Origin: a bacterium
GTDB lineage: Bacteria > Patescibacteriota > Patescibacteriia > Patescibacteriales > GWC2-42-12
DNA: 64,000 bases
Reading direction: 5' to 3'
NCBI GenBank assembly: GCA_030650415.1
Contig: JAUSEG010000017.1
Location: forward strand, 16,885 to 80,884
Below, piece by piece: positions 16,651-64,000 of this stretch (the first letter of the stretch is position 1; every line of letters begins with the position of its first letter). Under the pieces are notes generated by a model that worked only from the letters and a program-made list of their open reading frames with translations, did not search any database and was not told the origin of the DNA. Position numbers and translations under genes: made by a program.

Positions 16651-16662
16651 AGTTTAACTTAT

Positions 16663-17979
16663 TTAATTAACTCGTTCTATGTCCGTGCCGAGTTTATTTA
16701 ATCGTTCGCAGATATTTTCATAACCGCGATCAATTGAGTATGAATTATAAAGAATTGATTTACCCTTGGCCGCCAGCATGCATATAAGTAAATTTATTGC
16801 CGGTCTTAGAGCCGGCGGGCAAATTATTTTAGCGGGTTTCAATTTTGTTGGACCGCTGACCGTAACCCGATACTGATCGTGCATAAGGATCCTTGCCCCT
16901 AATTTATTTAATTCAGTATAATAGATTGCCCGATTTTCATAAACCCAATCATGCACGAGAGTTTGGCCCTTGGCTTGAGTTAGGATCGGCAGGAATAAAG
17001 GCAGATTATCAATATTTAAGCCGGGAAAGGGGCGACCGTAAATTTTATCCGGCAGGGCGATTAATTTTGAGGGCGTGATCTCTATGTTAACAAGTTTAAA
17101 TTGGCCGTTAGTAGATTTGTAGGCTCGGCTGATTTTTATTTTTTGGCCCATCAGGCTTAATTTTTCCAATTCCAGACTTAAAAATTCTATGGGGCAATGG
17201 GTGATTTTTAATTTTGAACCGGTGGTGATGGCAATAGAAATAAAAGCCATGGATTCTATCGGATCAGGCATAATCGGGTAATTAATCGGTTTCAGTTTTT
17301 TTACTCCGGTAATCCGCAGCTTAGTCGTGCCGATGCCTTTAATTTTTGCTCCGGCGCGGACTAAGAAGAAACACAAATCTTGCACCATATAATTAGGCGA
17401 AGCTAAATTTATTTCGGTTATGCCGGGCAGAAGAACAGCGGCTAAAATAGCATTTTCGGTAGCCGTATCTCCGGATTCGTACATAGTAAACTCTGCGCCT
17501 TTAGCCTTGCCTCGATTAACAAAGAATTGGTTGTTGATTTTTTTTACTTCAATGCCAAGATGCTTTAGGGCAATCATGTGCGGATTGATGGTTCTTTTCC
17601 CTAGCTTGCAGCCGCTGGTTTTCGGCAAAGAGAAATTTTTAAATATCGAAGATAGGGCGCCGATTAAGAGAATCGCCGATCTGGTTTTTTCATAAGACTC
17701 ACGGTTAATTTTTTTAAGAGAAATTTTACCGGAGTTTATGACTTCCAGTTTATTGCCCGAGAGCCAGGTTATTTTTAAACCAATGGAAGTTAAAATTTCT
17801 ATGATTCGGTTAACTTCTTCAATTCGCGGCATGTCTGTTAAAATAGTTTTTCCTTTGATTATCGGTAGGGCGCAAAGTATGGCCACGGCCGAATTTTTCG
17901 CCGAGTTGGTTTTAATCGTGCCATGCAGTTTACGACCGCCGTTTATAACGAAATTTGACATAAAGTTATTAAAAATCAA
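16663..17979 (-). CDS. murA: UDP-N-acetylglucosamine 1-carboxyvinyltransferase
   Basis: Collinear with E. coli MurA: GTIKTNSAKNSAVAILCA, active-site Cys context KTSGCKLGKRTINPH, C-terminal IDRGYENICERLNKLG. Confidence 0.85.
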   Translation of the reverse strand: MIFNNFMSNFVINGGRKLHGTIKTNSAKNSAVAILCALPIIKGKTILTDMPRIEEVNRIIEILTSIGLKITWLSGNKLEVINSGKISLKKINRESYEKTRSAILLIGALSSIFKNFSLPKTSGCKLGKRTINPHMIALKHLGIEVKKINNQFFVNRGKAKGAEFTMYESGDTATENAILAAVLLPGITEINLASPNYMVQDLCFFLVRAGAKIKGIGTTKLRITGVKKLKPINYPIMPDPIESMAFISIAITTGSKLKITHCPIEFLSLELEKLSLMGQKIKISRAYKSTNGQFKLVNIEITPSKLIALPDKIYGRPFPGLNIDNLPLFLPILTQAKGQTLVHDWVYENRAIYYTELNKLGARILMHDQYRVTVSGPTKLKPAKIICPPALRPAINLLICMLAAKGKSILYNSYSIDRGYENICERLNKLGTDIERVN

Positions 17980-17999
17980 AATTAAAATATTTATATTTT

Positions 18000-18158
18000 G
18001 TCATTGCGGCCTCCGAGCCGCAATCCAGGAGAAGAAGCAGGAGTGAGAAGATAAGAATGAAGCTAATTAAAGAAAGAAAATTTTGTTTGGCGCAATTTAT
18101 TTAGTGATTTATAGTTCGTTCAACTTCCTCCTGGATTCCCGCCTGCGCGGGAATGACA
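18000..18158. repeat. GC-rich hairpin modules
   Basis: gtcattgcggcctccgagccgcaatccagga (18000..18030). tcctggattcccgcctgcgcgggaatgaca (18129..18158). Confidence 0.8.
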
Positions 18159-18231
18159 AGATAGAATTATCATAGCTTAAACCGGGCGATTTTTCAAGGA
18201 TTTGGCAAGGTTTGTCCGTTTTACGCCAAAT

Positions 18232-18263
18232 AAAAAAGCGTTCGAGGTCGGAGTCTCGAACGC
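18232..18263 (-). terminator. Rho-independent terminator of 18290..18943
   Basis: Minus strand: gcgttcgag-actccgac-ctcgaacgc (9-bp stem) followed by tttttt. Confidence 0.75.
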
Positions 18264-18289
18264 GGTTTGTGAGTAAATTTTTGCCGCGA

Positions 18290-18943
18290 TTACTGCGCGT
18301 CAACGGTATAGAGGGCGGCTACCTTTTTTTCCGCCTTAAGCCAATCCTCCGTTGCTTGACCATCCTTCCTCTCCTGCCATAGGTGCTTTGCTCGTTCCGT
18401 CCTTTCGGTTAGGGAGGGGATGTGGCCACTTTCCTTGATAAACAGATCCCAGGCATCGCACCAATTGTGCTGGCTTCTGTCCTGTTCGTAGCGACTCCAG
18501 ATGTGTTGCGCTGCTTTGGCTACAAGTTCATTGAACTCGGAGCGGTTGACCAACGATTTCTCGGCACGCGAGATACGTTCAAGTGTGATGACTCCGTCTG
18601 CTGTCAGACAGAGCAGGATCTTGGCGCAGTGTTCGTGTGTCTCGCAGGCGCTGATGATGACCTTAACGCCCGGACAGAGGCAGATGTCAGGGATAGGGCC
18701 ATAACAGGCTTCGGGCTTGAACATGGCCACGATACGTTTTCCGGCCGCCAGGCATTGCGCGATGGCATGGATATGATGGTAGCCGTATGAGCTGCGTCCT
18801 CTTTGCCCGCACACGAAACAGGTGGCATCCGGGTTTTGCCCGTGATATTGTTGGAGACCGTACTTGTCGGTGTAGAAGTACTCGCCTTCAGAAGGTTTTA
18901 GATCTGCCAATTCGGCAGTGCCCGTAGAATTAGTTTCTATCAT
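18290..18943 (-). CDS. High-GC orphan: Cys/His-rich N-terminal domain plus DUF2934-like C-terminal repeat(s)
   Basis: 217 aa. CFVCGQ..GYHHIH..C...C..CLC...CETHEHC..C gives about 9 Cys and 6 His in 75 aa. C-terminal RAKHLWQERKDGQATEDWLKAEKKV resembles the DUF2934 motif (E.W...G...G...DW..AE). 57% G+C in line 18601-18660. Confidence 0.7.
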   Translation of the reverse strand: MIETNSTGTAELADLKPSEGEYFYTDKYGLQQYHGQNPDATCFVCGQRGRSSYGYHHIHAIAQCLAAGKRIVAMFKPEACYGPIPDICLCPGVKVIISACETHEHCAKILLCLTADGVITLERISRAEKSLVNRSEFNELVAKAAQHIWSRYEQDRSQHNWCDAWDLFIKESGHIPSLTERTERAKHLWQERKDGQATEDWLKAEKKVAALYTVDAQ

Positions 18944-19002
18944 GTTTCCTTTGTTCGTTGAGTTTTTGGTGTTTGTTTTCCCTCGTTTTTCCCTCCGCCC
19001 TC

Positions 19003-19031
19003 ATACTATCAACTCAACTGACACCTGTCAA
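19003..19031 (-). promoter_or_regulatory. Sigma70-type promoter of 18290..18943
   Basis: Minus strand: TTGACA-17 nt-TAGTAT about 60 nt upstream of the ATG. The leader ends ...actcaacgaacaaaggaaacATG. Confidence 0.5.
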
Positions 19032-19102
19032 TTCCAGTTAAATTTGGCAAAATGGATTTGCTTATGGTAAGATTAAGAAGTAAATATTAATTATAGTTTA
19101 TT

Positions 19103-20389
19103 ATGGATAAGGTTGATTTACCCGGCCAAATCATCACTCCGAAGAAACGCCGTAAAAGTAAAGTTTTGGGCGTTGTTTTATTATGTCTGATAATACTCGC
19201 CGTTTCTTTTAATGGCGGCATGATTTTCGCGCAGAAAAATGAGTTTATTAAATCGGCGAGCCTTAAGGAAGCTAATTACGCTGGCGGGGTTTATAATAAG
19301 TATGTAACGGCGCCGGCCAACAAGCTAACGCAGGACGTGGATTTTAATTTGTTCTGGAATGTCTGGGACATGCTTAAAGAAAAATATGTTGATAGGGATA
19401 AATTAGACGATAAAAAAATGTTTTATGGGGCGCTCAAAGGCTTGGTTCAATCAACCGGCGATCCTTACACCGTTTATATGGAGCCGAAATTAGCTAAAGA
19501 ATTTTCTAATGATTTGGCCGGAACCTTTGAAGGCATTGGCGCGGAAATCGGCAAGAAGAATGAAATTATAACTATTATCGCGCCGCTCGCCGACATGCCG
19601 GCGGAAAAAGCCGGTTTAAAATCCGGTGATAAAATTTATGCGATTGACGGCCAATCAACAGCCGGTTTGGAAATTGATGAAGCGGTCAGTAAAATCCGCG
19701 GCGCCAAAGGAACAGAAGTCACTCTAACTATTTACAGAGAAGGCTTTGAAGCCACTAAAGATTTTAAGATTACCAGGGACGCCATAATAGTTAAGAGCAT
19801 CAGAACCGAAATGTGGGATGATAAAATTTTTGTCATTACCATAACTAATTTTAACGACGATACGTCGGATTTGTTTAAGCGGGCGGTGCAATCGGCCGTG
19901 GAGAAAAATCCCAAAGGCATAATTTTAGATTTAAGGAATAATCCGGGCGGTTATCTTGAAACCGCTATTGACGTGGCCAGCGAATGGATTGAAAAAGGCG
20001 TGGTTGTTACCGAGCAGTTTAGTCCGGAGAAAAAAAATGAATATTTAAATCGCGGCCGGGCGCGCTTAAAAGATTATCCGACAGTGGTTCTAGTCAATCA
20101 GGGTAGCGCTTCGGCTTCGGAAATCGTGACCGGCGCGTTAAAGGATTATAAGAAAGCCACGGTTGTCGGCAAGAAGACTTTTGGCAAGGGTTCGGTTCAA
20201 ACTTTAGAAGAGCTTCAGGATAGCTCCTCGGTAAAAATTACCGTGGCTAAGTGGCTTACTCCAGGCGGCTATAATATTAACGAGCAAGGCATTATGCCTG
20301 ATATAGAAGTTGATTTTACCGCGGATGATTATGAAAAAAGCAAAGATCCGCAGATGGCTAAGGCGATAGAAATATTAAATAAGAAATAG
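19103..20389 (+). CDS. Carboxyl-terminal processing protease (peptidase S41) with PDZ domain
   Basis: N-terminal TM helix, PDZ (PAEKAGLKSGDKIYAIDG), S41 core LDLRNNPGG...NQGSASASEI...GKKTFGKG. Confidence 0.9.
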   Translation: MDKVDLPGQIITPKKRRKSKVLGVVLLCLIILAVSFNGGMIFAQKNEFIKSASLKEANYAGGVYNKYVTAPANKLTQDVDFNLFWNVWDMLKEKYVDRDKLDDKKMFYGALKGLVQSTGDPYTVYMEPKLAKEFSNDLAGTFEGIGAEIGKKNEIITIIAPLADMPAEKAGLKSGDKIYAIDGQSTAGLEIDEAVSKIRGAKGTEVTLTIYREGFEATKDFKITRDAIIVKSIRTEMWDDKIFVITITNFNDDTSDLFKRAVQSAVEKNPKGIILDLRNNPGGYLETAIDVASEWIEKGVVVTEQFSPEKKNEYLNRGRARLKDYPTVVLVNQGSASASEIVTGALKDYKKATVVGKKTFGKGSVQTLEELQDSSSVKITVAKWLTPGGYNINEQGIMPDIEVDFTADDYEKSKDPQMAKAIEILNKK

Positions 20390-20395
20390 ATAATT

Positions 20396-22747: not shown

Positions 22748-22782
22748 AGAGCTGGCTTAAAAAAATAATAAAGAGAAATAAT

Positions 22783-23145
22783 ATGCTAGAGGAAAAAGAT
22801 ATTCAATCTATCGGAGAGTTGCTTGATAAAAAGTTAAAGAATCAAAAGGATGAAATTGTAGCTGAAATAGGGTCGGCAACGAGTGAAGCCTTTAGCGCTG
22901 TTGAAAGCAGTTTAGGAAAGCTTGAAACTAAGGTTGATAAATTAAGCGAAGAAATGTCGCTTCGTCCGACTTTAAATCAAATCATGAATTGGGGAGACAA
23001 AAAAATAGTCGCGCTGGAATTGGATATGGACAAGGTAAAGTATCTTCATCAAGAAGAGTTTAATAAACTGCCGCCGCAGGCGGAAATTAGCCGGAGATTG
23101 GTTGAATGCGGTTTAAAAGAAAAAACAGCGCATCCGGTTAAATGA
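22783..23145 (+). CDS. Hypothetical coiled-coil protein
   Basis: 120-aa ORF with no recognisable domain. It ends ...AHPVK* in a sequence (catccggttaaatga) loosely similar to family-E termini. Confidence 0.55.
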   Translation: MLEEKDIQSIGELLDKKLKNQKDEIVAEIGSATSEAFSAVESSLGKLETKVDKLSEEMSLRPTLNQIMNWGDKKIVALELDMDKVKYLHQEEFNKLPPQAEISRRLVECGLKEKTAHPVK

Positions 23146-23158
23146 TTTAATCATCTCT

Positions 23159-23293
23159 AAAAAAGCAAGCCCTTAATTAGGCTTGCTTTTTATATTTTCA
23201 GAAGTTTTATTTCGCTTGCGGTATTACGTTAACGATCTTGGTGGATACCAGCTCGCTATCATATTTCTTGATTTTCTTAGTGGTAAAAATGCG
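23159..23293 (-). pseudogene. Diverged duplicate of the rpmA 3' end plus its terminator (att-like island boundary)
   Basis: About 78% identical to 25686..25820. It encodes ...[26 protein letters not shown] versus the L27 end [26 protein letters not shown]. Terminator aagcaagcc-taattaag-ggcttgctttttt is retained. Confidence 0.8.
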
Positions 23294-23559
23294 GGCTCGG
23301 ACACGACAGAATCTAGATTTTCATATTGGAATGCGAAGGCGGAGGCTTTTTGAAAAAGTAAAATGGTGGTTGATTCAAAAATCAAAAAAAACCGAGCATC
23401 TCCAGTCGAGACACCCGGTCAAATGGTTACCCTAAGGGCATCCTAAAAAACTCGTCCGGTTGAAATTGTTTACACCGATGAACTTTGCTCTACGGATTCA
23501 CAAATTTATTGCAAACCCGATAAAGCAGGGAACCGAAGTTCCCTGAAACCGTCCGACCA

Positions 23560-23988
23560 TCAATTTAATGACGGGTCGACGGGCGTGACGGGAAGGCGAG
23601 GTGTTTGCGCTTTTGGTGCTTGCAGAACTGCCGTCATCAGTTTCGCAACTAGAATTGTTTCGGTGATGATGCAAAGCACAATCCCCAAAAAACAATTCCA
23701 GAACCTCGAGGGTGGACTGCCTCCAAGCATCCACGCATACCCAACAAAGCTCACAAAGAGCCCGACCAGTAGCACCACATAAAGCCGCTGGCGAAATTGC
23801 CTCTTGGCAAGTGCAAGGCTTACGCCCGCACCGATTCCCACAAATAATGTGGTGCGTGCCTCCCAAAGAGCCTTCGGCCAACTTTGGAGTTCGTCGAGCG
23901 CGAAGCTCGCTGTGAAAAACAGACCGCCCAAACCACAGGCGATTGTTCCGACAATTAACAGACCGATTTTGGTGTTTTTAGTATTCAT
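23560..23988 (-). CDS. Island gene A: 4-TM membrane protein
   Basis: The track ORF is 23560..24084. The ATG at 23988 (MNTKNTKIGLLIVGTIACGLGG...) avoids translating repeat R1. Four clear hydrophobic helices. Confidence 0.55.
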   Translation of the reverse strand: MNTKNTKIGLLIVGTIACGLGGLFFTASFALDELQSWPKALWEARTTLFVGIGAGVSLALAKRQFRQRLYVVLLVGLFVSFVGYAWMLGGSPPSRFWNCFLGIVLCIITETILVAKLMTAVLQAPKAQTPRLPVTPVDPSLN

Positions 23989-24049
23989 GCAATTTGCCGC
24001 CGTGCCATCACACCGAAGCAAGTTGCATGAATACTTGTTTAAAAGAACA

Positions 24050-24092
24050 AACTCTATGAATCCACCACACTTTGATGGACTCAATTGAGTGG
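24050..24092 (-). repeat. Island repeat R1 (imperfect palindrome)
   Basis: aactctatgaatccaccacactttgatggactcaattgagtgg, followed by the unique hairpin gggagattt..aaatccccc. Confidence 0.8.
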
Positions 24093-24189
24093 GAGATTTA
24101 TTTTGAAATCCCCCAAGATTTTGTGATGATTCTGTTGCCAGGTAATCACTCTACCCCGCGTGCCGAAGCCGCAGTGGAGCCGCTTTGGG

Positions 24190-24336
24190 CTAGGCCAGCA
24201 TGGACTCAGGCACAACCTTGAAGTTGGCCTCATCCACTGCCGCGCAATCATTCCGAAAGTCGCAGGCTTCGTCAAACAAAGCGAACGGCCCGGAATCCAG
24301 CATCCCATCGCGGGTGATGTAAAACGGAGCTTCCAC
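24190..24336 (-). CDS. Island gene B: 48-aa acidic protein (below the ORF-track cutoff)
   Basis: GTG start 8 nt after AGGAGG (24350..24345). Translation: VEAPFYITRDGMLDSGPFALFDEACDFRNDCAAVDEANFKVVPESMLA*. Confidence 0.45.
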   Translation of the reverse strand: MEAPFYITRDGMLDSGPFALFDEACDFRNDCAAVDEANFKVVPESMLA

Positions 24337-24363
24337 TCTTCTCACCTCCTTTCTTAAAGAACT

Positions 24364-24408
24364 GAACTCTATGAATCCGCAAAACTTTTTGTGGACTCAA
24401 TAAAGTGG
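24364..24408 (-). repeat. Island repeat R2
   Basis: gaactctatgaatccgcaaaactttttgtggactcaataaagtgg, followed by the hairpin ggatcaa-aagc-ttgatcc. Confidence 0.8.
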
Positions 24409-24532
24409 ATCAAAAGCTTGATCCGTTTCTCACAACTTTTTCTGGCATGTGACGCACAGGGATTTTTCATAATTTCCAACGCCTTCTTTTATTTATTCTC
24501 GCCGGAGGATTTCGAGTCAGGAAGTAGCCCAC

Positions 24533-24736
24533 CTACTTAATGAACCGTCGTAACCACTTGGGAATTTCCCAAAAGATTACGCAGGTCACTTCGTAAGGGT
24601 GGTGCTCACCTAATGTCTCGCGTTCACGACGCTCTGAATGGTACTTCGATTCATAAGCATCATTCTCGCTTTGACATCCGATGGACACCTGGCCACCTTT
24701 CCGCTTCGCCACATATGCAGTATGCAGCATCTGCAA
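24533..24736 (-). CDS. Island gene C: ~65-aa basic protein, start uncertain
   Basis: ORF ...MLHTAYVAKRKGGQVSIGCQSENDAYESKYHSERRERETLGEHHPYEVTCVIFWEIPKWLRRFIK*. First ATG at 24730. No clear SD. Confidence 0.35.
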   Translation of the reverse strand: MQMLHTAYVAKRKGGQVSIGCQSENDAYESKYHSERRERETLGEHHPYEVTCVIFWEIPKWLRRFIK

Positions 24737-24775
24737 CCAGCGCCACCACTTCTGGGCTTTACTGGTTTCTTCAAA

Positions 24776-24821
24776 GAACTCTATGAATCCACCACATCTA
24801 TGATGAACTCAATAAAATGGG
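24776..24821 (-). repeat. Island repeat R3
   Basis: gaactctatgaatccaccacatctatgatgaactcaataaaatggg, followed by the hairpin gggaatgt..acattccc. Confidence 0.8.
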
Positions 24822-24862
24822 AATGTTTGTTTGGCACATTCCCGAAAGCCGATTGAAACTGG

Positions 24863-25447
24863 TCAAGAAGATGGTTTTGTTTCAGTGACACTGACCATCT
24901 TTTGAAATCCTTCCTCGGTTACGAGGCCGGAGGCGATAGCCAGAGACGCGGCGGATCGTGCCGCACCTATACCGAAACCTCGCCTTTTCCCATTCATCTT
25001 TCCGAAGATGAATTGCGCCACTCGCTCCTGAAAGTCGATCTCCTCTGTCTGGTATTCAAGGCCGTGTTCAATAAAAAACCCGCTAATTAGACGAACGGCT
25101 TTTTTACCAACACCGCGGTAGTGAAGAAGCTGATAGTCGCTTTTACCACGGATGTCGCCGACTCGCTCAAACCCACACTTCGCCAACGGTCCAACGACCG
25201 AACCGGGGAAGACCTCTTCCAGCCGTAACATGTACAGCCCGACCCTGTCTCCCTTCAGCTTCTTTAATTTATTGGCTCGGGCGATTCGGGTTTCTGCCTC
25301 TTGGCGAATAGAACGTATCCGAGAAGAGGTAACCTTGAACCGATCAGCAATTGCCCTTACTTTCTCTCCGTTCGTCATTGCCGTCACAACGGCTTTTTCC
25401 CGATGGGTCAAGATTTCTAGGTTTTCGGCGCTGATATTAGTATTCAT
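24863..25447 (-). CDS. Island gene D: putative DNA-binding regulator (sigma70 region-4/LuxR-like HTH plus RpoA-CTD-like helix-hairpin-helix)
   Basis: LTHREKAVVTAMTNGEKVRAIADRFKVTSSRIRSIRQEA is an HTH. GPLAKCGFERVGDIRGKSDYQLLHYRGVGKKAVRLISGFF resembles alpha-CTD HhH. The 10-bp inverted repeat attgtgaat..attcacaat lies upstream. Confidence 0.55.
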   Translation of the reverse strand: MNTNISAENLEILTHREKAVVTAMTNGEKVRAIADRFKVTSSRIRSIRQEAETRIARANKLKKLKGDRVGLYMLRLEEVFPGSVVGPLAKCGFERVGDIRGKSDYQLLHYRGVGKKAVRLISGFFIEHGLEYQTEEIDFQERVAQFIFGKMNGKRRGFGIGAARSAASLAIASGLVTEEGFQKMVSVTETKPSS

Positions 25448-25736
25448 TGTTTTCCTTTTGTTTTTGTTGTTTGGTTAATTGTGAATCTAAAACCGGAAAA
25501 ATTCGAGTTCAAATTCACAATCAACCCAAAAGGAAAAAACTTAAGAATTCAAATTTAACTAGAGCATAAAATAATATAGCATATCTCATTCTGTTTGTCA
25601 ATACAAGTGGCAGTAAAATTATATATTTTAACTAAAATTAGCTAATTTATATTAATAGATTACGGATCAGAGGTCGCAATGACAATAAAAAAAGCAAGCC
25701 CAATTAAGAGTTTGCTTTTTTGTATTTTCAAAAGTT

Positions 25737-26021
25737 TTATTTCATTTGCGGTATGACATTGACGATTTTAGTGGCTACCAGTTTGCCATCGTATTTTTTT
25801 ATTTTTTTGGTGGTAAAGGTGACGAACCCGGCCACCATAGAGAATAGGGTATCGTCCTTGCCTTTTTCCACATTCTTGCCCGGCCGGTACTTAGTGCCGC
25901 GCTGGCGGATGATGATTGATCCGATTTTAGCGTAGCCGCCATCTTGGATTTTTACACCCAATCTTTTGCTTTGCGAATCGCGGCCGTAGACGGTTGAGCC
26001 GCCGGCTTTTTTATGCGCCAT
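25737..26021 (-). CDS. rpmA: 50S ribosomal protein L27
   Basis: [51 protein letters not shown] is the canonical L27 sequence. Confidence 0.97.
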
Positions 26022-54098: not shown

Positions 54099-56057
54099 AT
54101 GATTTTACTAAAAAAACAATTTAAAAGAAGCGATCCTTTCGTTATTCAGGAGGGCAGTATCCGGTCTGGTAAATTAAAAAGGGATCAAGGCGCGTTTGAA
54201 TTGGTTGAGTCCCAATCTTCATATTCGGGCAGAAAAGAAACCATCGGCCGGAGTTTTGACGTCAATAAAATTTATAAAATAAATATAGTTTTGTTATTGT
54301 TTTTTTTCTTTATTCTCGGCCGAGCCGGCTGGCTGCAAATCGCTAAAGGCGGTTATTATTACGATTTAGCCGAAGGCAATCGCATCAGAGTCGAGAGAAT
54401 GGAAGCGAAGAGAGGTGTAATTTATGATCGATTAGGCCGGCCCTTGGTTAGGAATTCAGCCAATTTTTTATTATATTTTACGCCGGCTGATTTGCCTAAG
54501 GATAAAATTGAGCAAAAAAAGATTATTCAGAAAGTCAGCGAATATTTAGGCGATATCAAGCCGGAGGCAATCGCGGATTCTTTAAGTAAAATTAAAGTTA
54601 ATTCGCTAGAATCCTATCAACCTTTATTTATCGCCGATAATATTGACTATGACCGAGCCATGGCGCTTTATTTAGCGGCCGATAATCTGCCGGGCGTAAT
54701 TATAACCAATAAGACCAGGCGCGAATATAATTTATTCAGCCTGTCTTTATCTCATATTTTGGGTTATACGGGAAAAATCAATGACGCGGAATTAGTTAAA
54801 TTCGGCGGCGGCTATCTGCCGATTGATTATATCGGTAAAACCGGGATTGAGAATTTTTGGGAGAACGAGATGAAAGGAACGAACGGAAAAAAGCAAATTG
54901 AAGTCGATGCTCTAGGTAAGGAAAAAAAGATTATAAACCAAGAGCCGGGTGAAGACGGGCATAATCTGGTTTTATCAATTGACATTGAACTGCAGAAAAA
55001 ACTCGAAGAATCAATAATAAGTTCTTTAGAAAAGCTTCATTTAAATAAGGCTTGCGCTATCGCTTTAGACCCGAATAACGGCGAAGTCTTAGCCATGGTA
55101 AGTTTTCCTTCATACAACAATAACGACTTTGCTCATGGCCTGACGCAGGCCGAATATCAAAAAATTGCCGAGCATCCGGATCGGCCATTATTTAATCGCT
55201 GCGTTTCCGGCGAATATCCGTCCGGTTCGGTGATTAAGCCGGTGGTCGCGGTCGCGGCGCTTGAAGAAAAAATTATTAATGAAAATACCAGTTTTTTAAG
55301 TACCGGTGGAATAAAAATTGATCAATGGTTTTTTCCTGACTGGAAAGCGGGCGGGCACGGCTTAACTAATGTCAGGTCGGCCATTGCCAATTCGGTCAAT
55401 ACTTTTTTCTATTACATCGGCGGCGGCTACCAGGATTTTACCGGGCTCGGCCTTGATCGCATGGTGAAATATGAAAAATTATTCGGCCTGGACGCGCAAT
55501 CCGGCATAGATCTAATAGGCGAAGCCGATGGTTTTTTACCGACTAAGGATTGGAAGCTTCAGACTAAGGATGAAAGATGGTATATCGGCGATACTTATCA
55601 TGTGGCGATCGGGCAAGGCGATCTCTTAGTCACACCCTTGCAGGTGGCGGACTATACGGCGGTTTTCGCCAATGGCGGTTCTCTGTATCGTCCGCATTTA
55701 ATTAAACAAATTTTAAACAGTCAGGATAAAATTATCGGCGAAGTGGATAATAAGCCGATTAGAAGTAATTTCGTAAGCGCTAAAAATATTGAAATCGTCA
55801 GGCAGGGTATGCGCCAAACCATAACCTCGGGTAGCGCGCAGAGCTTGCAAGCCGTTCCCGTTCCCGTAGCCGGCAAGACCGGCACGGCGCAGTGGTCGAG
55901 CGTAAAGCCGACTCATGCCTGGTTCACCGGCTTCGCGCCTTATGACAAGCCGGAAATTGTCATAACCATTTTAATCGAGCAGGGCGGGGAAGGCAGTACG
56001 ACTGCCGTACCGATTGCTAAGGAAGTATTGAATTGGTATTTTAGCAGAAATCCTTAG
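54099..56057 (+). CDS. mrdA: Penicillin-binding protein 2 (class B transpeptidase)
   Basis: N-terminal TM helix, dimerisation domain, SGSVIKP (SxxK), SVN-type motif, KTGTAQ. Confidence 0.85.
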   Translation: MILLKKQFKRSDPFVIQEGSIRSGKLKRDQGAFELVESQSSYSGRKETIGRSFDVNKIYKINIVLLLFFFFILGRAGWLQIAKGGYYYDLAEGNRIRVERMEAKRGVIYDRLGRPLVRNSANFLLYFTPADLPKDKIEQKKIIQKVSEYLGDIKPEAIADSLSKIKVNSLESYQPLFIADNIDYDRAMALYLAADNLPGVIITNKTRREYNLFSLSLSHILGYTGKINDAELVKFGGGYLPIDYIGKTGIENFWENEMKGTNGKKQIEVDALGKEKKIINQEPGEDGHNLVLSIDIELQKKLEESIISSLEKLHLNKACAIALDPNNGEVLAMVSFPSYNNNDFAHGLTQAEYQKIAEHPDRPLFNRCVSGEYPSGSVIKPVVAVAALEEKIINENTSFLSTGGIKIDQWFFPDWKAGGHGLTNVRSAIANSVNTFFYYIGGGYQDFTGLGLDRMVKYEKLFGLDAQSGIDLIGEADGFLPTKDWKLQTKDERWYIGDTYHVAIGQGDLLVTPLQVADYTAVFANGGSLYRPHLIKQILNSQDKIIGEVDNKPIRSNFVSAKNIEIVRQGMRQTITSGSAQSLQAVPVPVAGKTGTAQWSSVKPTHAWFTGFAPYDKPEIVITILIEQGGEGSTTAVPIAKEVLNWYFSRNP

Positions 56058-56137
56058 CTCCTTCTTTCTTTATGGGTGAAGCAGGTTTTGTCTTAATAAA
56101 TTTTTATGCTAAAATATAAGCATAAACATAAATAACA

Positions 56138-56884
56138 ATGAATATGCTGGATAGCCTTATTTTGAACAAAAAATCCATAGAAAGTATTTATAAAACAATT
56201 AGCGAATACCACAAAAAACATTTAGTACAATTTGGAGTAAAATTGCCTAAACTTTATGCTTCTAAAAAGAAATTTACAAAAGACGCGCTAGTTTTAGTCT
56301 ATTTAGCATACGATTACCCAAATACTAGAAAAGTTAGTAAAGAGGAACTTACTAAATTTGTCAGGAGCCATTATCCAAATACAAACGATGTTCAGCAAGC
56401 CAGACATTTGGGCGCGCAAGCTGGCTGGTGGATAGTCGCGGGCGGACGAGATAATATTGTTTTAAAAATAGAAAGAGGTTCATATCAGCTTTATACATTA
56501 GAGCAACCCTATCCTGGATTTAAAAAGGGACACAGGATCGCAGAAACTGATGACTGGGGCACTATAAAAGAAAAATATAATTATCGTTGCGCTACTTGCG
56601 GTTCGCAAGAAGGCAAGCCGCACTTTCATTGGCCAGCGACAAAAACGATTTTAGAGAAATCACATATGGATCCGAACAAACCGCTTGTTCCTGGAAACAT
56701 TATTCCTCAATGCCAGAAATGCAACCGGGGCGACAGAAATAGATGGGTTTATGACGAAAAAGGCAGAGTTATAAAATTAGCAGATGGTAATTTTGTAAAA
56801 AATTTTGATAAAGAGGTAAAGAAAATAATTTATAGAATACTTTATAAAGAATTTAATGGAAAAAATCCAAATTTAAAAAAATGA
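56138..56884 (+). CDS. Putative type II restriction endonuclease, HNH (beta-beta-alpha-Me) type
   Basis: C-terminal CATCGSQEGKPHFHWPATKTILEKSHMDP...NIIPQCQKCNR has two CxxC pairs around His/Asn. Its stop overlaps the methylase start (ATGA at 56881..56884). Confidence 0.6.
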   Translation: MNMLDSLILNKKSIESIYKTISEYHKKHLVQFGVKLPKLYASKKKFTKDALVLVYLAYDYPNTRKVSKEELTKFVRSHYPNTNDVQQARHLGAQAGWWIVAGGRDNIVLKIERGSYQLYTLEQPYPGFKKGHRIAETDDWGTIKEKYNYRCATCGSQEGKPHFHWPATKTILEKSHMDPNKPLVPGNIIPQCQKCNRGDRNRWVYDEKGRVIKLADGNFVKNFDKEVKKIIYRILYKEFNGKNPNLKK

Positions 56885-57888
56885 AAAACAATAAATTTAT
56901 AAACAATATAATTTGCGCTGACACTTTAGAATTTTTACCTCAAATCGAAAGTGATTCTATTGATGTTGTTCTGACTGATCCTCCATATTTTTTAGATAAG
57001 CTTGATAATAATTGGGATTATGAAGAAGTGTCAAATCAAAATAACCAATACACGATAAAATCACTTCCCGCCGGAATGAAATTTGACAGAGAACAAGGTA
57101 AAAGGTTTTATGCCTGGTATTTGAAAATTTCTTATGAAATTTTTAGAATTTTAAAACCAGGCGGTTTTTTCTTTTCATTTTCTAGTCCTAGGTTGTATCA
57201 CAGGATGGCTTCCGCGATTGATGATGCCGGTTTTGAAATCAGAGATGCCTTTATGTGGCTATATACTCAAAATCAGGCCAAAGCGATGGGCGTTGATCAC
57301 TTTATTAAAAAAATGGATATAGATGAGAAAGCAAAAGAAAAAATTAGAGAAAAATTGAATGGTTGGAAAACCCCACAAATTAAATCATGCTTTGAGCCAA
57401 TCGCAATGGCGCAAAAACCAGCCGGTCAAACATATCTTAAAAATATGCTTGAACATGAAGTTGGATTGTTTAATACCAATTTCAGAATTGGCAACAATAT
57501 GTACCCGGCGAATGTTTTTACGGTAGATGAAATAAATGAGTTGGTTGATAGAGCCTTTTTATTGCCGAAACCGACAAAAAAAGAAAAAGGAGATTACAAT
57601 AACCACAAAACCGTTAAGCCCTTGGCTATTTGCGAGTATTTAATTAAATTATCGGCTTTTTCAAAAGACGCTGTTATATTAGATCCGTTTGTCGGTAGCG
57701 GGACAACCGCGGTGGCGGCCAAAAAGTTGGGTAAAAATTATATTGGCATTGACGCGAACGAAAAATATGTAAAAATTTCCGAGAGAAGATTAAAAGAATT
57801 AGATGAAAAATCTGGTTTATTTAAAAATGCAATGAATGTAGAAAAACAGGAAAAAATAAGTTTGCAAGCGCAACTGCAGATTGCCTAA
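56881..57888 (+). CDS. DNA methyltransferase, beta-class (N6-adenine or N4-cytosine)
   Basis: Motif IV VLTDPPYF precedes motif I FVGSGTTAVAA near the C-terminus (beta permutation). Confidence 0.85.
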   Translation: MKNNKFINNIICADTLEFLPQIESDSIDVVLTDPPYFLDKLDNNWDYEEVSNQNNQYTIKSLPAGMKFDREQGKRFYAWYLKISYEIFRILKPGGFFFSFSSPRLYHRMASAIDDAGFEIRDAFMWLYTQNQAKAMGVDHFIKKMDIDEKAKEKIREKLNGWKTPQIKSCFEPIAMAQKPAGQTYLKNMLEHEVGLFNTNFRIGNNMYPANVFTVDEINELVDRAFLLPKPTKKEKGDYNNHKTVKPLAICEYLIKLSAFSKDAVILDPFVGSGTTAVAAKKLGKNYIGIDANEKYVKISERRLKELDEKSGLFKNAMNVEKQEKISLQAQLQIA

Positions 57889-58112
57889 AATTAGATATAA
57901 GATACAAAAAATATGAAAACGAAAAAAGGAGCGGATAATATTACTTTTTTTAGTCTGCCATCGCGCGATCAAAAAAAAGATTATTAAAGCCGCGGTTAAA
58001 GCGGCGAATAAAGACCAAAGTAATTTAGTAATGTAATACGAAAAATCTTGTTGTGGCTTAAAGCCGGCTCACGGTTGCAGATAATTAAAAAAGAATTTGT
58101 AAAAATACTAAA

Positions 58113-58148
58113 AAATAAGGCGTGAATAACGGCCTTATTTTTTTTGTT
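58113..58148 (+). terminator. Rho-independent terminator of the R-M pair
   Basis: aaataaggc-gtgaataacg-gccttattt followed by tttttt. Confidence 0.7.
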
Positions 58149-58151
58149 TTA

Positions 58152-58178
58152 AAATAAAAAAGACCCGCCAGAGGTCTT
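58152..58178 (-). terminator. Terminator of 58222..59121
   Basis: Minus strand: aagacc-tctggcg-ggtctt followed by ttttatttt. Confidence 0.55.
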
Positions 58179-58221
58179 AGTGACATGGCGGGAAGCAGTT
58201 GGTCTGCTTAGTCCGTTGCGA

Positions 58222-59121
58222 TCAGGCGAGTTGGCTGGCGAGCCACTCGATGGCCTCTTGACGCGTCGCGAAGACGTTGGCTTCAGGGAAGCGTTTTTTG
58301 AGCACCTTCAGCGTCTGGTTCATGGCCTTGAGCGGATGCCCGGTTATGCCCTCAGTGTCGAAGACGACCACCGTGCGATTGGACTTGTCGTAGAGGGCCA
58401 TTGTGGCTTCAACCATTGAATAGGCCGAGAGCGGGTTGCCATCCTGTTTGGGATCGGCGATGTAGAAGACGAGATGGCTCGCCTCCGTCTTCGCCGCTTC
58501 TTCGCATCGCTGTGCCTCTTCGTTCCAGTCCTTGACGACCGGATTGAAAAGGGTTTCAGCCGACACGCCACGACCCACGAGGGATTCGATAAGACCGTCC
58601 CGCCAGTTGTTGTTCGCTGCCGTTCCATCCAGGAATACGAGCTTTTTGTTCATTTTGATTTTTTTGCTCTTCCTTTTCCCGTAGTACTTTGCCAGCGCCG
58701 CCTCGATGTCTTCACCGGACGCAACCTGCCAAGTAATTTCCGTATTCAGCAGATGCTCGAGCGAGTCCACGACGGCCAGGTCGGACGGATCCGCGATGGC
58801 GATGGTGAGCGCGTCGCCGTGTTTGTAAACGGGAACGACTCGATAGTTGCGGGCGATGTCCCTGCGGACGCTGGCGATGACCTCATCGTCAATCTTCATC
58901 TCACTCAGATTCACCACCTTCACGCCAAAGTGCGCCGCCAAGGCATGCATGATATTATCCTTCTGGATAATGTTATGGATTAGCATCCAATTCACGACCC
59001 CAACCCGACAATCACTCGCCGCCTCTCTGGCGGCCGCGACCTGTTTGGCGTTAACTAGGCCGAGATTTAGCAGCGAATCAATCAGATAATCTTTCCCTTC
59101 GCCTATAGACTGTTTTTTCAT
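58222..59121 (-). CDS. High-GC orphan: T2SSE_N/MshEN-type domain fused to nucleoside 2-deoxyribosyltransferase-like domain
   Basis: Residues ~10-150 are collinear with the PilB/GspE N-terminal domain (..HFGVKVVNLSEMKIDDEVIASV..ARNYRVVPVYKHGDALTIAIADPSDLAVVDSLEHLL..EITWQVASGEDIEAALAKYYG). After a Lys-rich linker, FLDGTAANNNWRDGLI...FNPVVKDWNEEAQRCE...YSMVEAT matches phage NDT-like proteins (FLGGT....WR..LI...FNPVV.DW...Q..E...YS..E). 58% G+C in line 58441-58500. Confidence 0.75.
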   Translation of the reverse strand: MKKQSIGEGKDYLIDSLLNLGLVNAKQVAAAREAASDCRVGVVNWMLIHNIIQKDNIMHALAAHFGVKVVNLSEMKIDDEVIASVRRDIARNYRVVPVYKHGDALTIAIADPSDLAVVDSLEHLLNTEITWQVASGEDIEAALAKYYGKRKSKKIKMNKKLVFLDGTAANNNWRDGLIESLVGRGVSAETLFNPVVKDWNEEAQRCEEAAKTEASHLVFYIADPKQDGNPLSAYSMVEATMALYDKSNRTVVVFDTEGITGHPLKAMNQTLKVLKKRFPEANVFATRQEAIEWLASQLA

Positions 59122-59201
59122 AGTTTTTTTGTTTTGTTTTACTCCGGCTTGTTTTTGCCGGATATTTTATTTAAGCATATTTTAAAATATTTGTCCAGCT
59201 T

Positions 59202-63753: not shown

Positions 63754-63921
63754 TTAATCCTGCGGAAAGAGACTTTTGCCGTGGGGGCAAACAAATGGTT
63801 CCTCTGACTGAGGCGGTTCCTTGCAATCAGGAAACGGCATTTGCCTTGAGGCAGATCTGGCTAGGCCAAGGACGAAAATAATGACCAAAGCCCCGATAGT
63901 TGAAAGGACAATCAGTAACAT
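63754..63921 (-). CDS. Small membrane-anchored Cys-containing protein in a GC-elevated islet
   Basis: The ATG at 63921 (MLLIVLSTIGALVIIFVLGLA...) lies 5 nt after AAAGGAA. The leader actcaaccaaaggaataaaATG resembles that of 18290..18943. TATAAT upstream. Confidence 0.45.
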   Translation of the reverse strand: MLLIVLSTIGALVIIFVLGLARSASRQMPFPDCKEPPQSEEPFVCPHGKSLFPQD

Positions 63922-64000
63922 TTTATTCCTTTGGTTGAGTGTTACAATTATAGTATCATACATAGTCTTTTATGTCAAAATTTAGCTAATTTTAGAGATG

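What the first reader, a model, noticed from the sequence alone, without database searches (positions are those of the whole stretch)
18232..19031. Self-contained high-GC orphan gene (Cys/His-rich domain plus DUF2934-like repeats); all four high-GC islets in the window share strand and leader style
- **The gene.** 18290..18943 has 34/60 G+C in 18601-18660. It carries its own TTGACA-17-TAGTAT promoter and a 9-bp-stem terminator, and is wedged between murA and the S41 protease amid host repeat modules.
- **Protein features.** A dense Cys/His pattern (CFVC, GYHHIH, CLC, CETHEHC) suggests a multi-zinc domain I cannot place. It is followed by one or two copies of the DUF2934-type motif (..HLWQERKDGQATEDWLKAEKKV).
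- **Shared pattern across islets.** The four GC-elevated patches (18.2-19.0 kb, 23.3-25.7 kb, 58.2-59.1 kb, 63.75-63.92 kb) are all minus-strand. Three have similar C/A-rich leaders ending CAAAGGAA(A/T)..ATG: actcaacgaacaaaggaaacATG, acaaaaggaaaacaATG, actcaaccaaaggaataaaATG.
- **Interpretation (inference).** A common donor or vehicle, that is repeated acquisition of single-gene modules each complete with promoter and terminator.
Basis: partly seen in the sequence, partly recalled or inferred. Interest (0 to 1): 0.55.

Follow-up and report, generated by a model that had tools for sequence, protein, structure and literature searches.

The report
GC-rich mobile single-gene cassette
A real 217-residue gene in a tiny-genome groundwater bacterium (Parcubacteria/"Falkowbacteria"-like) sits on an 842-bp foreign-looking cassette with its own promoter and terminator. 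The cassette was inserted as a unit between two housekeeping genes, and the gene encodes an undescribed zinc-type domain, but it is neither an orphan nor a recent arrival.

Summary
**Observation.** It is largely correct. ORF 18290..18943(-), its GC excess, its TTGACA-17-TAGTAT promoter, its 9-bp-stem terminator and one DUF2934 match are all real.

**Not an orphan.** Seven close homologues (48-72% identity) exist in Patescibacteria. The N-terminal domain has 306 representative relatives, including some in large phages, and no Pfam, NCBIfam, PHROG, PADLOC or PDB match. Only one Cys3His site (C42, C45, C100, H103) is conserved, so there is no multi-zinc cluster.

**Comparative genomics.**
- Four sibling lineages carry the cassette at the same S41|murA site.
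- At least five others have an empty site with a single ATTTTGCCAAATC. That sequence flanks the 842-bp insert as a direct repeat (13/13 in one sibling).
- The same promoter-to-terminator unit sits at a different locus in another genome.
- dN/dS is about 0.25, so the gene is functional and was acquired before these lineages split.

**The four islets.**
- Islets 1-3 share a composition-normalised 3-mer signature distinct from even the GC-richest host genes; the 301-bp islet 4 is only marginally atypical.
- Three of the four have C/A-rich AAGGA leaders in a genome that otherwise lacks Shine-Dalgarno sites.
- All four are presence/absence variable among siblings.

**Verdict.** Protein function and insertion mechanism remain unknown.

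The parts
19042..19053 (-). Left copy of the flanking direct repeat, ATTTTGCCAAAT. This is the ancestral S41|murA intergenic sequence.
   Evidence: It is single-copy in the empty sites L109 and L111-L114, and it flanks the insert in the window, L104 and L107.
19003..19031 (-). Cassette promoter, TTGACA-17-(TG)TAGTAT.
   Evidence: Found. It is conserved in L001, L104, L107, L105 and L009. blastn homology to the ectopic copy L105 begins at 19032.
18944..18995 (-). 5' leader: a purine-rich block, then a C/A-rich tract with an invariant AAAnnTCAAC and an AAAGGAAA (18945-18952) SD-like motif.
   Evidence: Shown in alignment A5. SD-like cores are rare in this genome. The leader resembles the leaders of the other islets.
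18290..18943 (-). Coding sequence of the 217-aa protein X (identical to NCBI 'DUF2934 domain-containing protein', P0001).
   Evidence: dN/dS is 0.23-0.30 against orthologues.
18545..18910 (-). N-terminal domain of about 120 aa (aa 12-133), an undescribed alpha/beta domain. It carries a CxxC (C42, C45) ... CxxH (C100, H103) putative zinc site.
   Evidence: There are 306 relatives among representatives. There is no Pfam, PHROG, NCBIfam or PDB match. The AF2 model has pLDDT 90 and pTM 0.85. The only fold match is a Rhizobium-phage homologue, TM 0.74.
18428..18544 (-). Degenerate DUF2934-like helix (aa 134-172).
   Evidence: hhalign against the C-terminal repeat gives P 5e-4. The AF2 model shows a long helix at 134-172.
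18314..18397 (-). DUF2934 (PF11154) match, aa 183-210.
   Evidence: E 1.6e-5, 24.9 bits, above the 22-bit gathering cutoff.
18228..18263 (-). Intrinsic terminator: 9-bp stem, 8-nt loop, T-run.
   Evidence: It is conserved in five orthologous cassettes, with a compensatory T-A to C-G pair.
18199..18210 (-). Right copy of the direct repeat (CCTTGCCAAATC; 9 of 12 bases match the left copy exactly). It is followed directly by the murA promoter.
   Evidence: The start-to-start distance to the left copy is 842 bp.
18169..18197 (-). Host murA promoter, TTGAAA-17-TATGAT. It marks the right-hand host flank.
   Evidence: It is contiguous with the single repeat copy in empty sites.
22752..25747 (.). Islet 2: a ~3.0-kb indel absent from the sibling L001. 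It contains a 120-aa plus-strand gene and GC-rich minus-strand genes, including the 194-aa HTH protein (24863..25447), which has a TTGACA-17-TATATT promoter (25601) and an AAGGA leader.
56050..59200 (.). Islet 3 region: a ~3.1-kb indel absent from the four siblings L018-L021. It holds a low-GC putative type II R-M pair (56138..56884 and the methyltransferase 56881..57888) plus the GC-rich 299-aa MshEN + Nuc_deoxyri_tr2 gene (58222..59121, minus strand).
63754..63978 (-). Islet 4: a 55-aa ORF with a hydrophobic N-terminal stretch (63754..63921). It has a TTGACA-17-TACTAT promoter, an ACTCAACCAAAGGAA leader and a terminator, and lies downstream of dnaK.
   Evidence: The slot is empty in L019 and holds a different 125-aa gene in L018.

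Best explanation
**What it is.** Window 18200-19053 is an 842-bp accessory gene cassette: promoter, leader with an SD-like motif, a 217-aa ORF and an intrinsic terminator.

**How it got there.** The cassette was inserted as one piece into the short S41-protease|murA intergenic spacer of an ancestor of a sub-clade of Falkowbacteria-like Parcubacteria. The insertion duplicated, or recombined at, the 12-13-bp sequence ATTTTGCCAAATC that sits just upstream of the murA promoter.

**What happened since.**
- The cassette has been inherited vertically in at least four lineages.
- Sister lineages keep the empty site.
- A close copy of the same unit sits at an unrelated locus in another genome.
- The gene is kept by purifying selection, which is more relaxed than on its neighbours.

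**Composition.** Its base and oligonucleotide composition and its leadered, SD-type start are foreign to this SD-poor, 40%-GC genome. They resemble those of the other variable islets in the window. This points to a shared GC-richer source pool, most plausibly other Patescibacteria or their phages.

**The protein.**
- It combines an undescribed ~120-aa alpha/beta domain with two DUF2934-type helices that form a long helical tail.
- The domain is stabilised by a single Cys3His site, presumably zinc.
- Inference only: it is a non-enzymatic, zinc-stabilised binding or adaptor protein (nucleic acid or protein partner) with an accessory, possibly conflict-related, role.

**Shown versus inferred.**
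- Shown: the cassette unit, the filled and empty sites, the direct repeat, the selection and the compositional distinctness.
- Inferred: zinc binding, the binding function, the source pool and the insertion mechanism.
For: - **Real gene.** The ORF and its signals are confirmed. dN/dS is 0.23-0.30, against 0.08-0.11 for S41.
- **Synteny.** Orthologues P0005 (L001-L008, L110), P0003 (L104) and P0002 (L107) sit between S41 and murA.
- **Empty sites.** L109, L111, L112, L113 and L114 (S41 76-81% and murA 82-84% identical) have murA and S41 100-160 bp apart, with one copy of ATTTTGCCAAATC fused to the murA -35 box. In the S41 tree the empty lineages are basal to the X-bearing cluster.
- **Direct repeat.** It matches 13/13 in L107 and 9 bp exactly in the window, is imperfect in L104, and is lost on the right side in L001. 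The junction sequences are homologous across the filled sites, which indicates a single event.
- **Unit mobility.** P0004 (L105, between holB-like and another gene) nests inside the S41|murA-site clade in the X tree. It shares the promoter, leader and terminator, and homology starts at the -35 box. P0006 lies in a third context.
- **Composition.** GC is 0.534 against 0.41 for the host. Orthologues have GC 0.52-0.56 in hosts of 0.41-0.47. The 3-mer odds signature correlates at r=0.33 with the host, lower than all 300 host segments tested. It correlates at r=0.17-0.40 with the GC-richest host genes and at 0.63-0.73 with islets 2 and 3.
- **Leader.** An SD core precedes 6 of 60 genes, and three of those are islet genes. 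Many Parcubacteria lack the anti-SD motif (PMC9297842).
- **Protein.** Conserved residues were identified. The family has 306 representatives at E<=1e-3. It has no library match. The model is confident and has no PDB neighbour. Phage homologues exist.
Against: - **No mobility machinery.** No mobility gene, terminal inverted repeat or att-type structure was found. The insertion mechanism is therefore unknown, and the repeat in the window itself is only 9 exact bases.
- **Polarity rests on thin data.** The choice of insertion over deletion depends on a poorly resolved NJ tree of a single protein. L108, which lacks X, falls inside the X-bearing cluster.
- **High GC3 persists.** GC3 stays high despite near-saturated synonymous divergence (dS about 1.3 between the window and L001). 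This fits long-term selection or a native compositional constraint as well as incomplete amelioration.
- **The promoter is host-like.** The promoter type is also used by host genes such as L27, hrcA and FTR1.
- **Short sequences.** Signatures from k-mer counts over 0.3-2.4 kb are noisy, and no donor was identified.
- **Function is untested.** The function rests on conservation pattern and predicted structure only.
Confidence: 0.62

Rival explanations
1. X is a native, vertically inherited clade gene. Its GC-richness and odd k-mers come from its amino-acid composition and from selection on expression. The empty sites are secondary deletions by recombination between the two short direct repeats.
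For: - X is syntenic in four lineages with identical junctions.
- X dS between the window and L001 (1.33) is similar to that of flanking S41 (1.21).
- GC3 stays at 0.56-0.64 in all orthologues.
- The host gene L27 also has GC3 0.58.
- The promoter is of host type.
Against: - The flanking direct repeat is itself the scar of an insertion.
- The empty-site lineages are basal.
- The same promoter-to-terminator unit lies at other loci (L105, L009).
- The 3-mer signature differs even from the GC-richest host genes.
- The SD-type leader is atypical for the host.
Confidence: 0.15
2. The cassette is a minimal autonomous mobile element. Protein X (zinc domain plus helical DNA-binding tail) is itself the transposase, homing nuclease or recombinase that creates the 12-13-bp duplication.
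For: - A single ORF is bounded by a direct repeat of the target sequence.
- The unit is found at three or more genomic contexts.
- Relatives occur in large phages that are rich in free-standing selfish genes.
- The X gene tree is incongruent with location.
- X dS is lower than flank dS for window-L107 (0.67 against 1.04).
Against: - There are no terminal inverted repeats.
- There is no match to any transposase, nuclease or recombinase model.
- The X subfamily lacks most polar residues conserved in the wider family. Only the Cys3His site and the hydrophobic core are shared.
- There is one copy per locus examined.
- The four filled sites trace to one event.
- Other family members are fused to diverse domains in ordinary chromosomal contexts.
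Confidence: 0.08
3. The cassette, and the other islets, were integrated by a trans-acting site-specific recombinase or phage/plasmid vehicle that recognises a ~13-bp core. This would resemble integron cassettes or integrase-less mobilisable elements.
For: - The core sequence is identical on both sides and single in empty sites.
- Several intergenic slots (PBP2|hrcA, dnaK|dnaJ, small gene|L27) hold different self-contained genes in different siblings.
- Composition and leader style are shared.
Against: - No integrase, attC-like element or shared repeat was seen at the other islets' borders.
- The ectopic copy in L105 has no flanking repeat.
- The cassettes carry their own promoters, unlike integron cassettes.
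Confidence: 0.13
4. The feature is an assembly or binning artefact: foreign GC-rich DNA mis-joined into a Parcubacteria contig.
For: Composition is atypical. Logan contigs end close to the islets.
Against: The same S41-X junction occurs in an independent Logan assembly of SRR13727527. Orthologous junctions occur in NCBI, JGI, ENA and Logan assemblies from other samples.
Confidence: 0.02

Closest known systems
DUF2934 (PF11154) proteins
   Same: The C-terminal helix (aa 183-210) matches the model above the gathering threshold, and a second degenerate copy precedes it.
   Different: DUF2934 covers only about 13% of the protein and has no known function; five papers mention it and none characterises it. 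The defining N-terminal domain is not part of that family, and only 2 of the 150 proteins scanned (148 family representatives plus X and P0005) carry DUF2934.
Rhizobium phage RHph_TM39 hypothetical protein QIG77003 (BFVD A0A7S5R5G8) and its relatives in Cuauhnahuacvirus-type phages
   Same: The N-terminal domain has the same predicted fold (TM 0.74, rmsd 2.3 Å over 113 columns). The wider family shows sequence similarity to it (tblastn E 2e-10).
   Different: Identity to X is 15%, and there is no direct tblastn hit from X. The phage protein has no DUF2934 tail, is 158 aa long, sits in a phage early/nucleotide-metabolism region, and is also uncharacterised.
Free-standing homing-endonuclease genes (intronless homing, e.g. 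seg/mob genes of T4-like phages; from general knowledge)
   Same: Both are a single self-contained gene with its own promoter and terminator, inserted between conserved genes, and presence/absence polymorphic among close relatives.
   Different: X has no GIY-YIG, HNH or LAGLIDADG motif or model hit. Homing does not create a target duplication, whereas a 12-13-bp repeat flanks X.
Insertion sequences / MITEs
   Same: Both are short (0.84 kb) inserts bounded by a direct duplication of the target.
   Different: X has no terminal inverted repeats and no transposase homology. The four filled sites derive from one event. The cassette carries an ordinary sigma-70-type promoter and a terminator.
Integron gene cassettes
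   Same: Both are single-gene units added to a genome by a precise event at a short core sequence, and different genes occupy the same slots in related genomes.
   Different: The cassettes here have their own promoters. No attC, attI or IntI was seen. The slots are scattered between housekeeping genes rather than arranged in an array.
Treble-clef-type zinc fingers (general knowledge)
   Same: A CxxC knuckle after a beta-hairpin, plus CxxH at a strand-to-helix junction, provides four ligands.
   Different: A beta-alpha-beta-beta unit of about 55 residues is inserted between the two ligand pairs. Foldseek finds no PDB zinc finger or any other chain with TM above 0.31.

Membership tests
DUF2934 (PF11154) | HMM score above the Pfam gathering threshold | tested here: met
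   24.9 bits against a 22-bit cutoff, aa 183-210.
ORFan / orphan gene | No detectable homologues outside the genome | tested here: not met
   There are seven close homologues at 48-72% identity. A profile search finds 306 representatives at E<=1e-3.
Horizontally acquired genomic islet | Atypical base and oligonucleotide composition relative to the host | tested here: met
   GC is more than 2 SD above the gene mean. The 3-mer signature correlates with the host less than all 300 host segments tested, and it differs from the GC-richest host genes.
Horizontally acquired genomic islet | Presence/absence polymorphism with a precise empty site in close relatives | tested here: met
   Empty S41|murA sites are present in L109 and L111-L114.
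Horizontally acquired genomic islet | Identified donor or vehicle (mobility genes, tRNA site, phage genes) | tested here: not met
   There is no tRNA at the site. X matches no model in the anti-phage defence library PADLOC. X is not found in the phage collection. Homologues are only in Patescibacteria-type contexts.
Insertion sequence / transposon | Target-site duplication | tested here: met
   The repeat ATTTTGCCAAATC matches 13/13 in L107 and 9 bp exactly in the window.
Insertion sequence / transposon | Terminal inverted repeats | tested here: not met
   No inverted repeat links the two ends.
Insertion sequence / transposon | Encoded transposase of a known superfamily | tested here: not met
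   There is no Pfam, NCBIfam or PHROG hit other than DUF2934.
Free-standing homing endonuclease gene | Recognisable nuclease domain (GIY-YIG, HNH, LAGLIDADG, PD-(D/E)xK) | tested here: not met
   There are no model hits. The structural matches to LAGLIDADG proteins have probability <=0.07 and TM<=0.3.
Integron gene cassette | Promoterless ORF followed by an attC recombination site, next to intI/attI | tested here: not met
   The cassette has its own consensus promoter. Its 3' hairpin is a T-tailed terminator. Rfam finds nothing at the site. Integrase genes in the whole genome were not searched.
Zinc-binding (treble-clef-like) domain | Four conserved Cys/His ligands in knuckle plus helix geometry | tested here: met
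   C42 and C45 are invariant; C100 and H103 are invariant or near-invariant in the alignments of 8, 61 and 150 sequences. The secondary-structure positions come from the AF2 model.
Zinc-binding (treble-clef-like) domain | Actual metal occupancy | not testable with these tools
   This needs purified protein analysed by ICP-MS or X-ray fluorescence.

The most novel reading that the evidence does not exclude
These Parcubacteria carry a previously unrecognised class of minimal 'plug-in' gene cassettes. Each is a GC-rich single gene with a consensus promoter, a C/A-rich SD-type leader (in a lineage that otherwise does not use SD) and a terminator. They would be exchanged among Patescibacteria and their phages and inserted precisely between housekeeping genes, with a ~13-bp duplication, by an unknown mechanism. 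In the extreme version, the new zinc domain of protein X is itself the integrating enzyme.
Probability: 0.15. Interest if true: 0.8.

Novelty: new variant of a known kind. Interest (0 to 1): 0.5.

Why it matters
- **Gene flux in CPR bacteria.** Patescibacteria (CPR) have tiny, streamlined genomes, and how they gain accessory genes is poorly understood. This is a cleanly delimited example: filled and empty sites, a flanking repeat, and the same unit at a second locus. A single gene moved with all its expression signals but with no recognisable mobility gene.
- **Hotspot slots.** Several intergenic slots between housekeeping genes behave as hotspots that hold different genes in sibling genomes.
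- **Translation initiation.** The cassettes' SD-type leaders stand out in a genome that almost lacks SD sites. This offers a handle on translation initiation in Parcubacteria that lack the anti-SD.
- **A new domain.** The N-terminal Cys3His domain has about 300 representative clusters in Patescibacteria-type genomes and large phages. It has no Pfam, NCBIfam, PHROG or PDB counterpart, yet a confident predicted fold. It is a candidate new domain family worth naming and solving.

Tried and rejected
**Searches that found nothing**
- Full-length AF2 model against the PDB: no match.
- N-domain model (pLDDT 90) against the PDB: best E 0.77, TM<=0.31.
- Profile against PDB sequences: nothing significant. 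Best hits were KacA at E 0.09 and HALC3_919 at E 1.3.
- NCBIfam, PHROGs and PADLOC on X and on the family: nothing useful.
- tblastn of X against 50,697 phage genomes: no hit.
- IMG/VR scan with the broad alignment failed for lack of a conserved stretch. A narrower alignment gave one 260-kb phage-like contig.
- Cluster look-up for taxon names of distant relatives: all are unnamed metagenomic singletons.
- Rfam on the islets: no RNA family.
- Literature on DUF2934: no functional study.

**Ideas rejected or left weak**
- A conserved partner gene: none. Contexts differ in every lineage.
- Flanking repeats around family members at other loci (L105, L009, L011, L013, L015, L016): none found.
- Host genes being leaderless: -10-like hexamers pile up 0-3 nt before the start codons, which is too close for a promoter, so this was not claimed.
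- An operator-like inverted repeat between the promoter spacer and the leader (I8): not conserved in L001 or L107, so dropped.
- The antisense 122-aa ORF 18422..18790(+): treated as a by-product of high GC.
Full report
**1. The observation**

ORF 18290..18943 on the minus strand encodes 217 aa.
- Its GC is 0.534 and its GC3 is 0.61. The 64 large ORFs of the window average 0.409±0.056 and 0.428±0.083. Only the 299-aa gene at 58222..59121 is higher.
- 18601-18660 has 34/60 G+C.
- The promoter is TTGACA (19031-19026), a 17-nt spacer, then TG-extended TAGTAT (19008-19003).
- The terminator is GCGTTCGAG-8 nt-CTCGAACGC followed by T6 (18263-18238). The consensus scans recover both signals.
- The neighbours are murA (16663..17979) and an S41/CtpB protease (19103..20389).
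- Palindromic host repeat modules occupy 17987-18170.
- Pfam gives one match, DUF2934 at aa 183-210 (E 1.6e-5, 24.9 bits, cutoff 22).
- The preceding helix aligns to DUF2934 in register (hhalign P 5e-4). 'One or two copies' is therefore fair.

**2. Not an orphan**

- The 5.8-billion-protein search returns the protein itself, named 'MAG: DUF2934 domain-containing protein', on an 85,740-bp contig.
- It also returns six full-length homologues at 48-72% identity and one N-domain-only relative. The named ones come from Parcubacteria/Patescibacteria MAGs.
- A profile of the N-terminal ~130 residues finds 306 representatives at E<=1e-3, and 94 at E<=1e-10, among 1.84 billion cluster representatives.
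- In most of these the domain is C-terminal to a CPxCG...CxxC zinc ribbon, or is followed by variable tails.
- Neither Pfam, PHROGs, NCBIfam, PADLOC nor PDB sequences recognise the domain.

**3. The protein**

- Across 8, 61 and 150 sequences, the conserved residues are C42, F43, C45, F75, C100, H103, L107 and L110.
The data support one Cys3His site, not a multi-zinc cluster.
- AF2 with 61 relatives gives a confident model (pLDDT 90.1, pTM 0.85). It has a long beta-hairpin, the CxxC knuckle, a beta-alpha-beta-beta unit, and CxxH at the strand-to-helix junction.
- Foldseek finds no PDB neighbour; the best is E 0.77 with TM<=0.31.
- In BFVD it finds one match, A0A7S5R5G8 (TM 0.74, rmsd 2.3 Å).
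- Its length (158 aa) and the tblastn hit of a family member (P0025) to the same gene indicate that this match is hypothetical protein QIG77003 of Rhizobium phage RHph_TM39. Relatives occur in ten Rhizobium phage records.
- One IMG/VR contig of 260 kb with phage-like gene packing also carries a family member.
- The full-length model shows two long helices (134-172 and 178-211) for the DUF2934-type tail.
- No paper characterises DUF2934.
- The X subfamily keeps only the ligands and the hydrophobic core of the wider family. It has lost the wider family's polar motifs (GGEFF-SRGIG-D, LDYR, EPD-QVK). I therefore infer a zinc-stabilised binding module rather than an enzyme. This is inference only.

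**4. Synteny, empty sites and the cassette**

Filled sites.
- P0005 (56% identity, Parcubacteria GW2011_GWC2_42_12) lies in the same pyrG-S41-[X]-murA-PEGA arrangement on eight independent contigs.
- The two genomes are colinear over window 12002-26977, apart from one indel.
- P0002 and P0003 also sit at S41|murA.

Empty sites.
- A metagenome scan with the S41 protein found five sibling loci: L109, L111, L112, L113 and L114. Their S41 is 76-81% identical and their murA 82-84%.
- In these, murA and S41 are only 100-160 bp apart with no X.
- The empty site reads ...ATTTTGCCAAATC-TTGAAAAA(-35 of murA)-17-TATGAT.
- The filled site reads ...ATTTTGCCAAAT | ttaac..TTGACA..X..terminator.. | (AT/CC)TTGCCAAATC-CTTGAAAAA....

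The repeat.
- The insert is bounded by a direct repeat of the target. It matches 13/13 in L107 and 9 exact bases in the window (19050-19042 and 18208-18200, 842 bp apart). It is imperfect in L104, and the right copy is lost in L001.
- The sequences just inside both junctions are homologous in all filled sites. This indicates one ancestral event.
- In an NJ tree of S41 the empty lineages are basal to the X-bearing cluster. L108, which lacks X, falls inside that cluster, and the tree is weakly resolved.

The unit at other loci.
- P0004 (64-67% identical to P0001-3) lies between a holB-like gene and an unrelated gene.
- It carries the same TTGACA promoter, a related leader and the same GCGTCCGAG...CGGACGC-T6 terminator.
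- blastn homology to the window starts at 19032, the first base of the -35 box.
- In the X tree, P0004 nests between P0005 and the P0001-3 group.
- P0006 sits in a third context, EamA/PfkB.
- The promoter-to-terminator unit has therefore been placed at more than one locus.
- No terminal inverted repeats, mobility genes or tRNA accompany it. No flanking repeat was found at the other loci.

**5. Age and selection**

- dN/dS of X is 0.23-0.30, so selection is purifying. S41 has 0.08-0.11, and X is 56% identical where its neighbours are 83-92%. X is thus a functional but fast-evolving accessory gene.
- dS between the window and L001 is 1.33 for X and 1.21 for S41. This is consistent with co-inheritance since the split.
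- For window-L107, X dS (0.67) is below S41 dS (1.04). That could mean later exchange or constrained synonymous sites. I do not lean on it, because NG86 estimates near saturation are rough.
- The acquisition is old, not recent.
- GC3 remains 0.56-0.64 in all orthologues. Incomplete amelioration from a GC-richer donor and selection are both possible, and this remains unexplained.

**6. The four-islet claim**

Composition. I used 3-mer odds ratios normalised for base composition.
- X, islet 2 and islet 3 correlate with the rest of the window at r = 0.33, 0.63 and 0.62. None of 300 host segments of the same length scored that low.
- Islet 4 correlates at 0.53, in the lowest 3.7% of host segments.
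- Islet-to-islet correlations among islets 1-3 are 0.63-0.74, against 0.29-0.31 for X versus host segments. Correlations involving the 301-bp islet 4 are 0.43-0.52.
- The GC-richest host genes (dnaK, pyrG, L27) correlate with each other at 0.71-0.88 but with X at only 0.17-0.40. The signature is therefore not a by-product of GC alone.

Leaders.
- Only 6 of 60 genes have an AGGA, GGAG or GAGG core within 20 nt of the start codon. Three of them are X, the 194-aa gene of islet 2 and the 55-aa ORF of islet 4.
- The X leader shows local similarity to the leaders of islets 2, 3 and 4, with shuffle P = 0.002, 0.022 and 0.014.
- Published work reports that about half of Parcubacteria lack the anti-SD motif (PMC9297842). 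This fits the SD-poor host genes.

Presence and absence.
- Islet 2 lies in a 3.0-kb segment (22752-25747) absent from L001.
- Islet 3 lies in a 3.1-kb segment (about 56050-59200) absent from four siblings. That segment also holds a low-GC putative R-M pair.
- The same PBP2|hrcA slot holds a 100-aa ORF in L018 and a Nudix-like gene in L019. The Nudix call rests on the Nudix-box motif read by eye.
- The slot downstream of dnaK, which is the dnaK|dnaJ spacer in L018 and L019, holds the 55-aa ORF here and a 125-aa ORF in L018. It is empty in L019.
- A homologue of the 194-aa protein sits in a 55%-GC genome, where its GC (0.547) is native. GC-richer Patescibacteria are therefore plausible sources.

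Caveats.
- Four of four genes on the minus strand has P≈0.015, and the indels also contain plus-strand genes.
- The consensus TTGACA promoters are also used by host genes.

**7. Verdict**

- The sequence features are real and non-random.
- 'Orphan', 'multi-zinc' and 'recent' are wrong.
It gains direct support from filled and empty sites and from an ectopic copy of the unit.
- The insertion mechanism, the source and the protein's function remain unknown.
- I rate this a new variant of a known kind, a horizontally acquired genomic islet. It carries an undescribed domain family and has moderate interest.

Noticed in passing
window 56050-59200 (genes 56138..56884 +, 56881..57888 +, 58222..59121 -): This 3.1-kb segment is absent from four sibling genomes. 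It contains a low-GC (0.34) pair: a 248-aa protein with no Pfam family on record, and a 335-aa N6_N4/type II DNA methyltransferase, together probably an R-M system. It also holds a GC-rich (0.55, GC3 0.70) 299-aa fusion of an MshEN domain with a nucleoside 2-deoxyribosyltransferase-like domain. The C-terminal domain of that fusion has relatives on IMG/VR viral contigs. The segment looks like a small defence or accessory hotspot between PBP2 and hrcA.
   Followed up: partly
L018 9433..9735 (-), L019 235..867 (-), versus window 58222..59121: The same PBP2|hrcA intergenic slot holds a different minus-strand gene in each sibling: a 100-aa ORF in L018, a Nudix-like 210-aa gene in L019 (Nudix box read by eye, no HMM run), and the MshEN fusion in the window. 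The sequence just upstream of the gene, towards hrcA, is conserved between L018 and the window. This is a gene-turnover hotspot.
   Followed up: partly
L123 2751-2805 (+), upstream of the P0167 gene (2863-3462): A type III hammerhead ribozyme (Rfam RF00008, 51.2 bits, above the 48.5 gathering score, E 2.4e-8) lies about 58 nt upstream of the start codon of a homologue of the window's 194-aa islet-2 protein. That homologue sits between HU and RNase Y in a 55%-GC Patescibacteria-like contig. No ribozyme was found in the window.
   Followed up: partly
window 63754..63978 (-): A 55-aa ORF with a hydrophobic N-terminal stretch (MLLIVLSTIGALVIIFVLGLA...) has its own TTGACA-17-TACTAT promoter, AAGGA leader and terminator, immediately downstream of dnaK. 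The corresponding dnaK|dnaJ spacer is empty in L019 and holds an unrelated 125-aa ORF in L018. The window ends 22 nt beyond the promoter, so the far border is unseen.
   Followed up: partly
whole window (start-codon contexts of 60 ORFs): Host genes almost entirely lack Shine-Dalgarno motifs. Upstream regions are A/T-rich, with TATAAT-like hexamers piling up 0-3 nt before the ATG. This is consistent with reports that many Parcubacteria lack the anti-SD sequence. The 16S rRNA is not in the window, so this could not be checked directly.
   Followed up: partly
window 17987-18170, 20400-20600, and CGCAATGACA motifs 10-20 nt upstream of several start codons (e.g. 17990, 20610, 48780, 51200, 61710): Palindromic host repeat modules (TGTCATTCCCGCGCAGGCGGGAATCC... 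/ ...GGCCGCAATGACA) are inserted in 5' regions of housekeeping genes. The one between the murA promoter and the murA start is present in the window. At least its promoter-proximal arm is present in L001. It is not seen in the sequenced portions of L104 and L107, and it is absent from the empty sites L111, L112 and L113/L114. It is therefore a separate, more recent insertion.
   Followed up: partly
L011 10001-12218: A distant family member (P0138, GC 0.526) in a 43%-GC genome lies next to another strongly GC-rich gene (11224-11856, GC 0.605, no Pfam). Elsewhere, then, the family can be part of a multi-gene GC-rich islet.
   Followed up: no
window 22752-25747: Besides the 194-aa HTH-like protein (weak GerE and Sigma70_r4 hits), islet 2 contains a 120-aa plus-strand gene of host-like GC. 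It also contains overlapping minus-strand ORFs: a 174-aa ORF with long hydrophobic stretches at 23560..24084, and a 75-aa ORF. Their coding status is unclear, and a strong terminator lies at 23420-23390. The 194-aa protein has only four homologues in 5.8 billion proteins.
   Followed up: partly
L099 and L100 (Logan assembly of SRR13727527): In an independent assembly of the source sample, contigs break about 160 nt downstream of X and about 240 nt from the 299-aa gene. This may reflect the repeat modules or strain-level heterogeneity at the islet borders.
   Followed up: no
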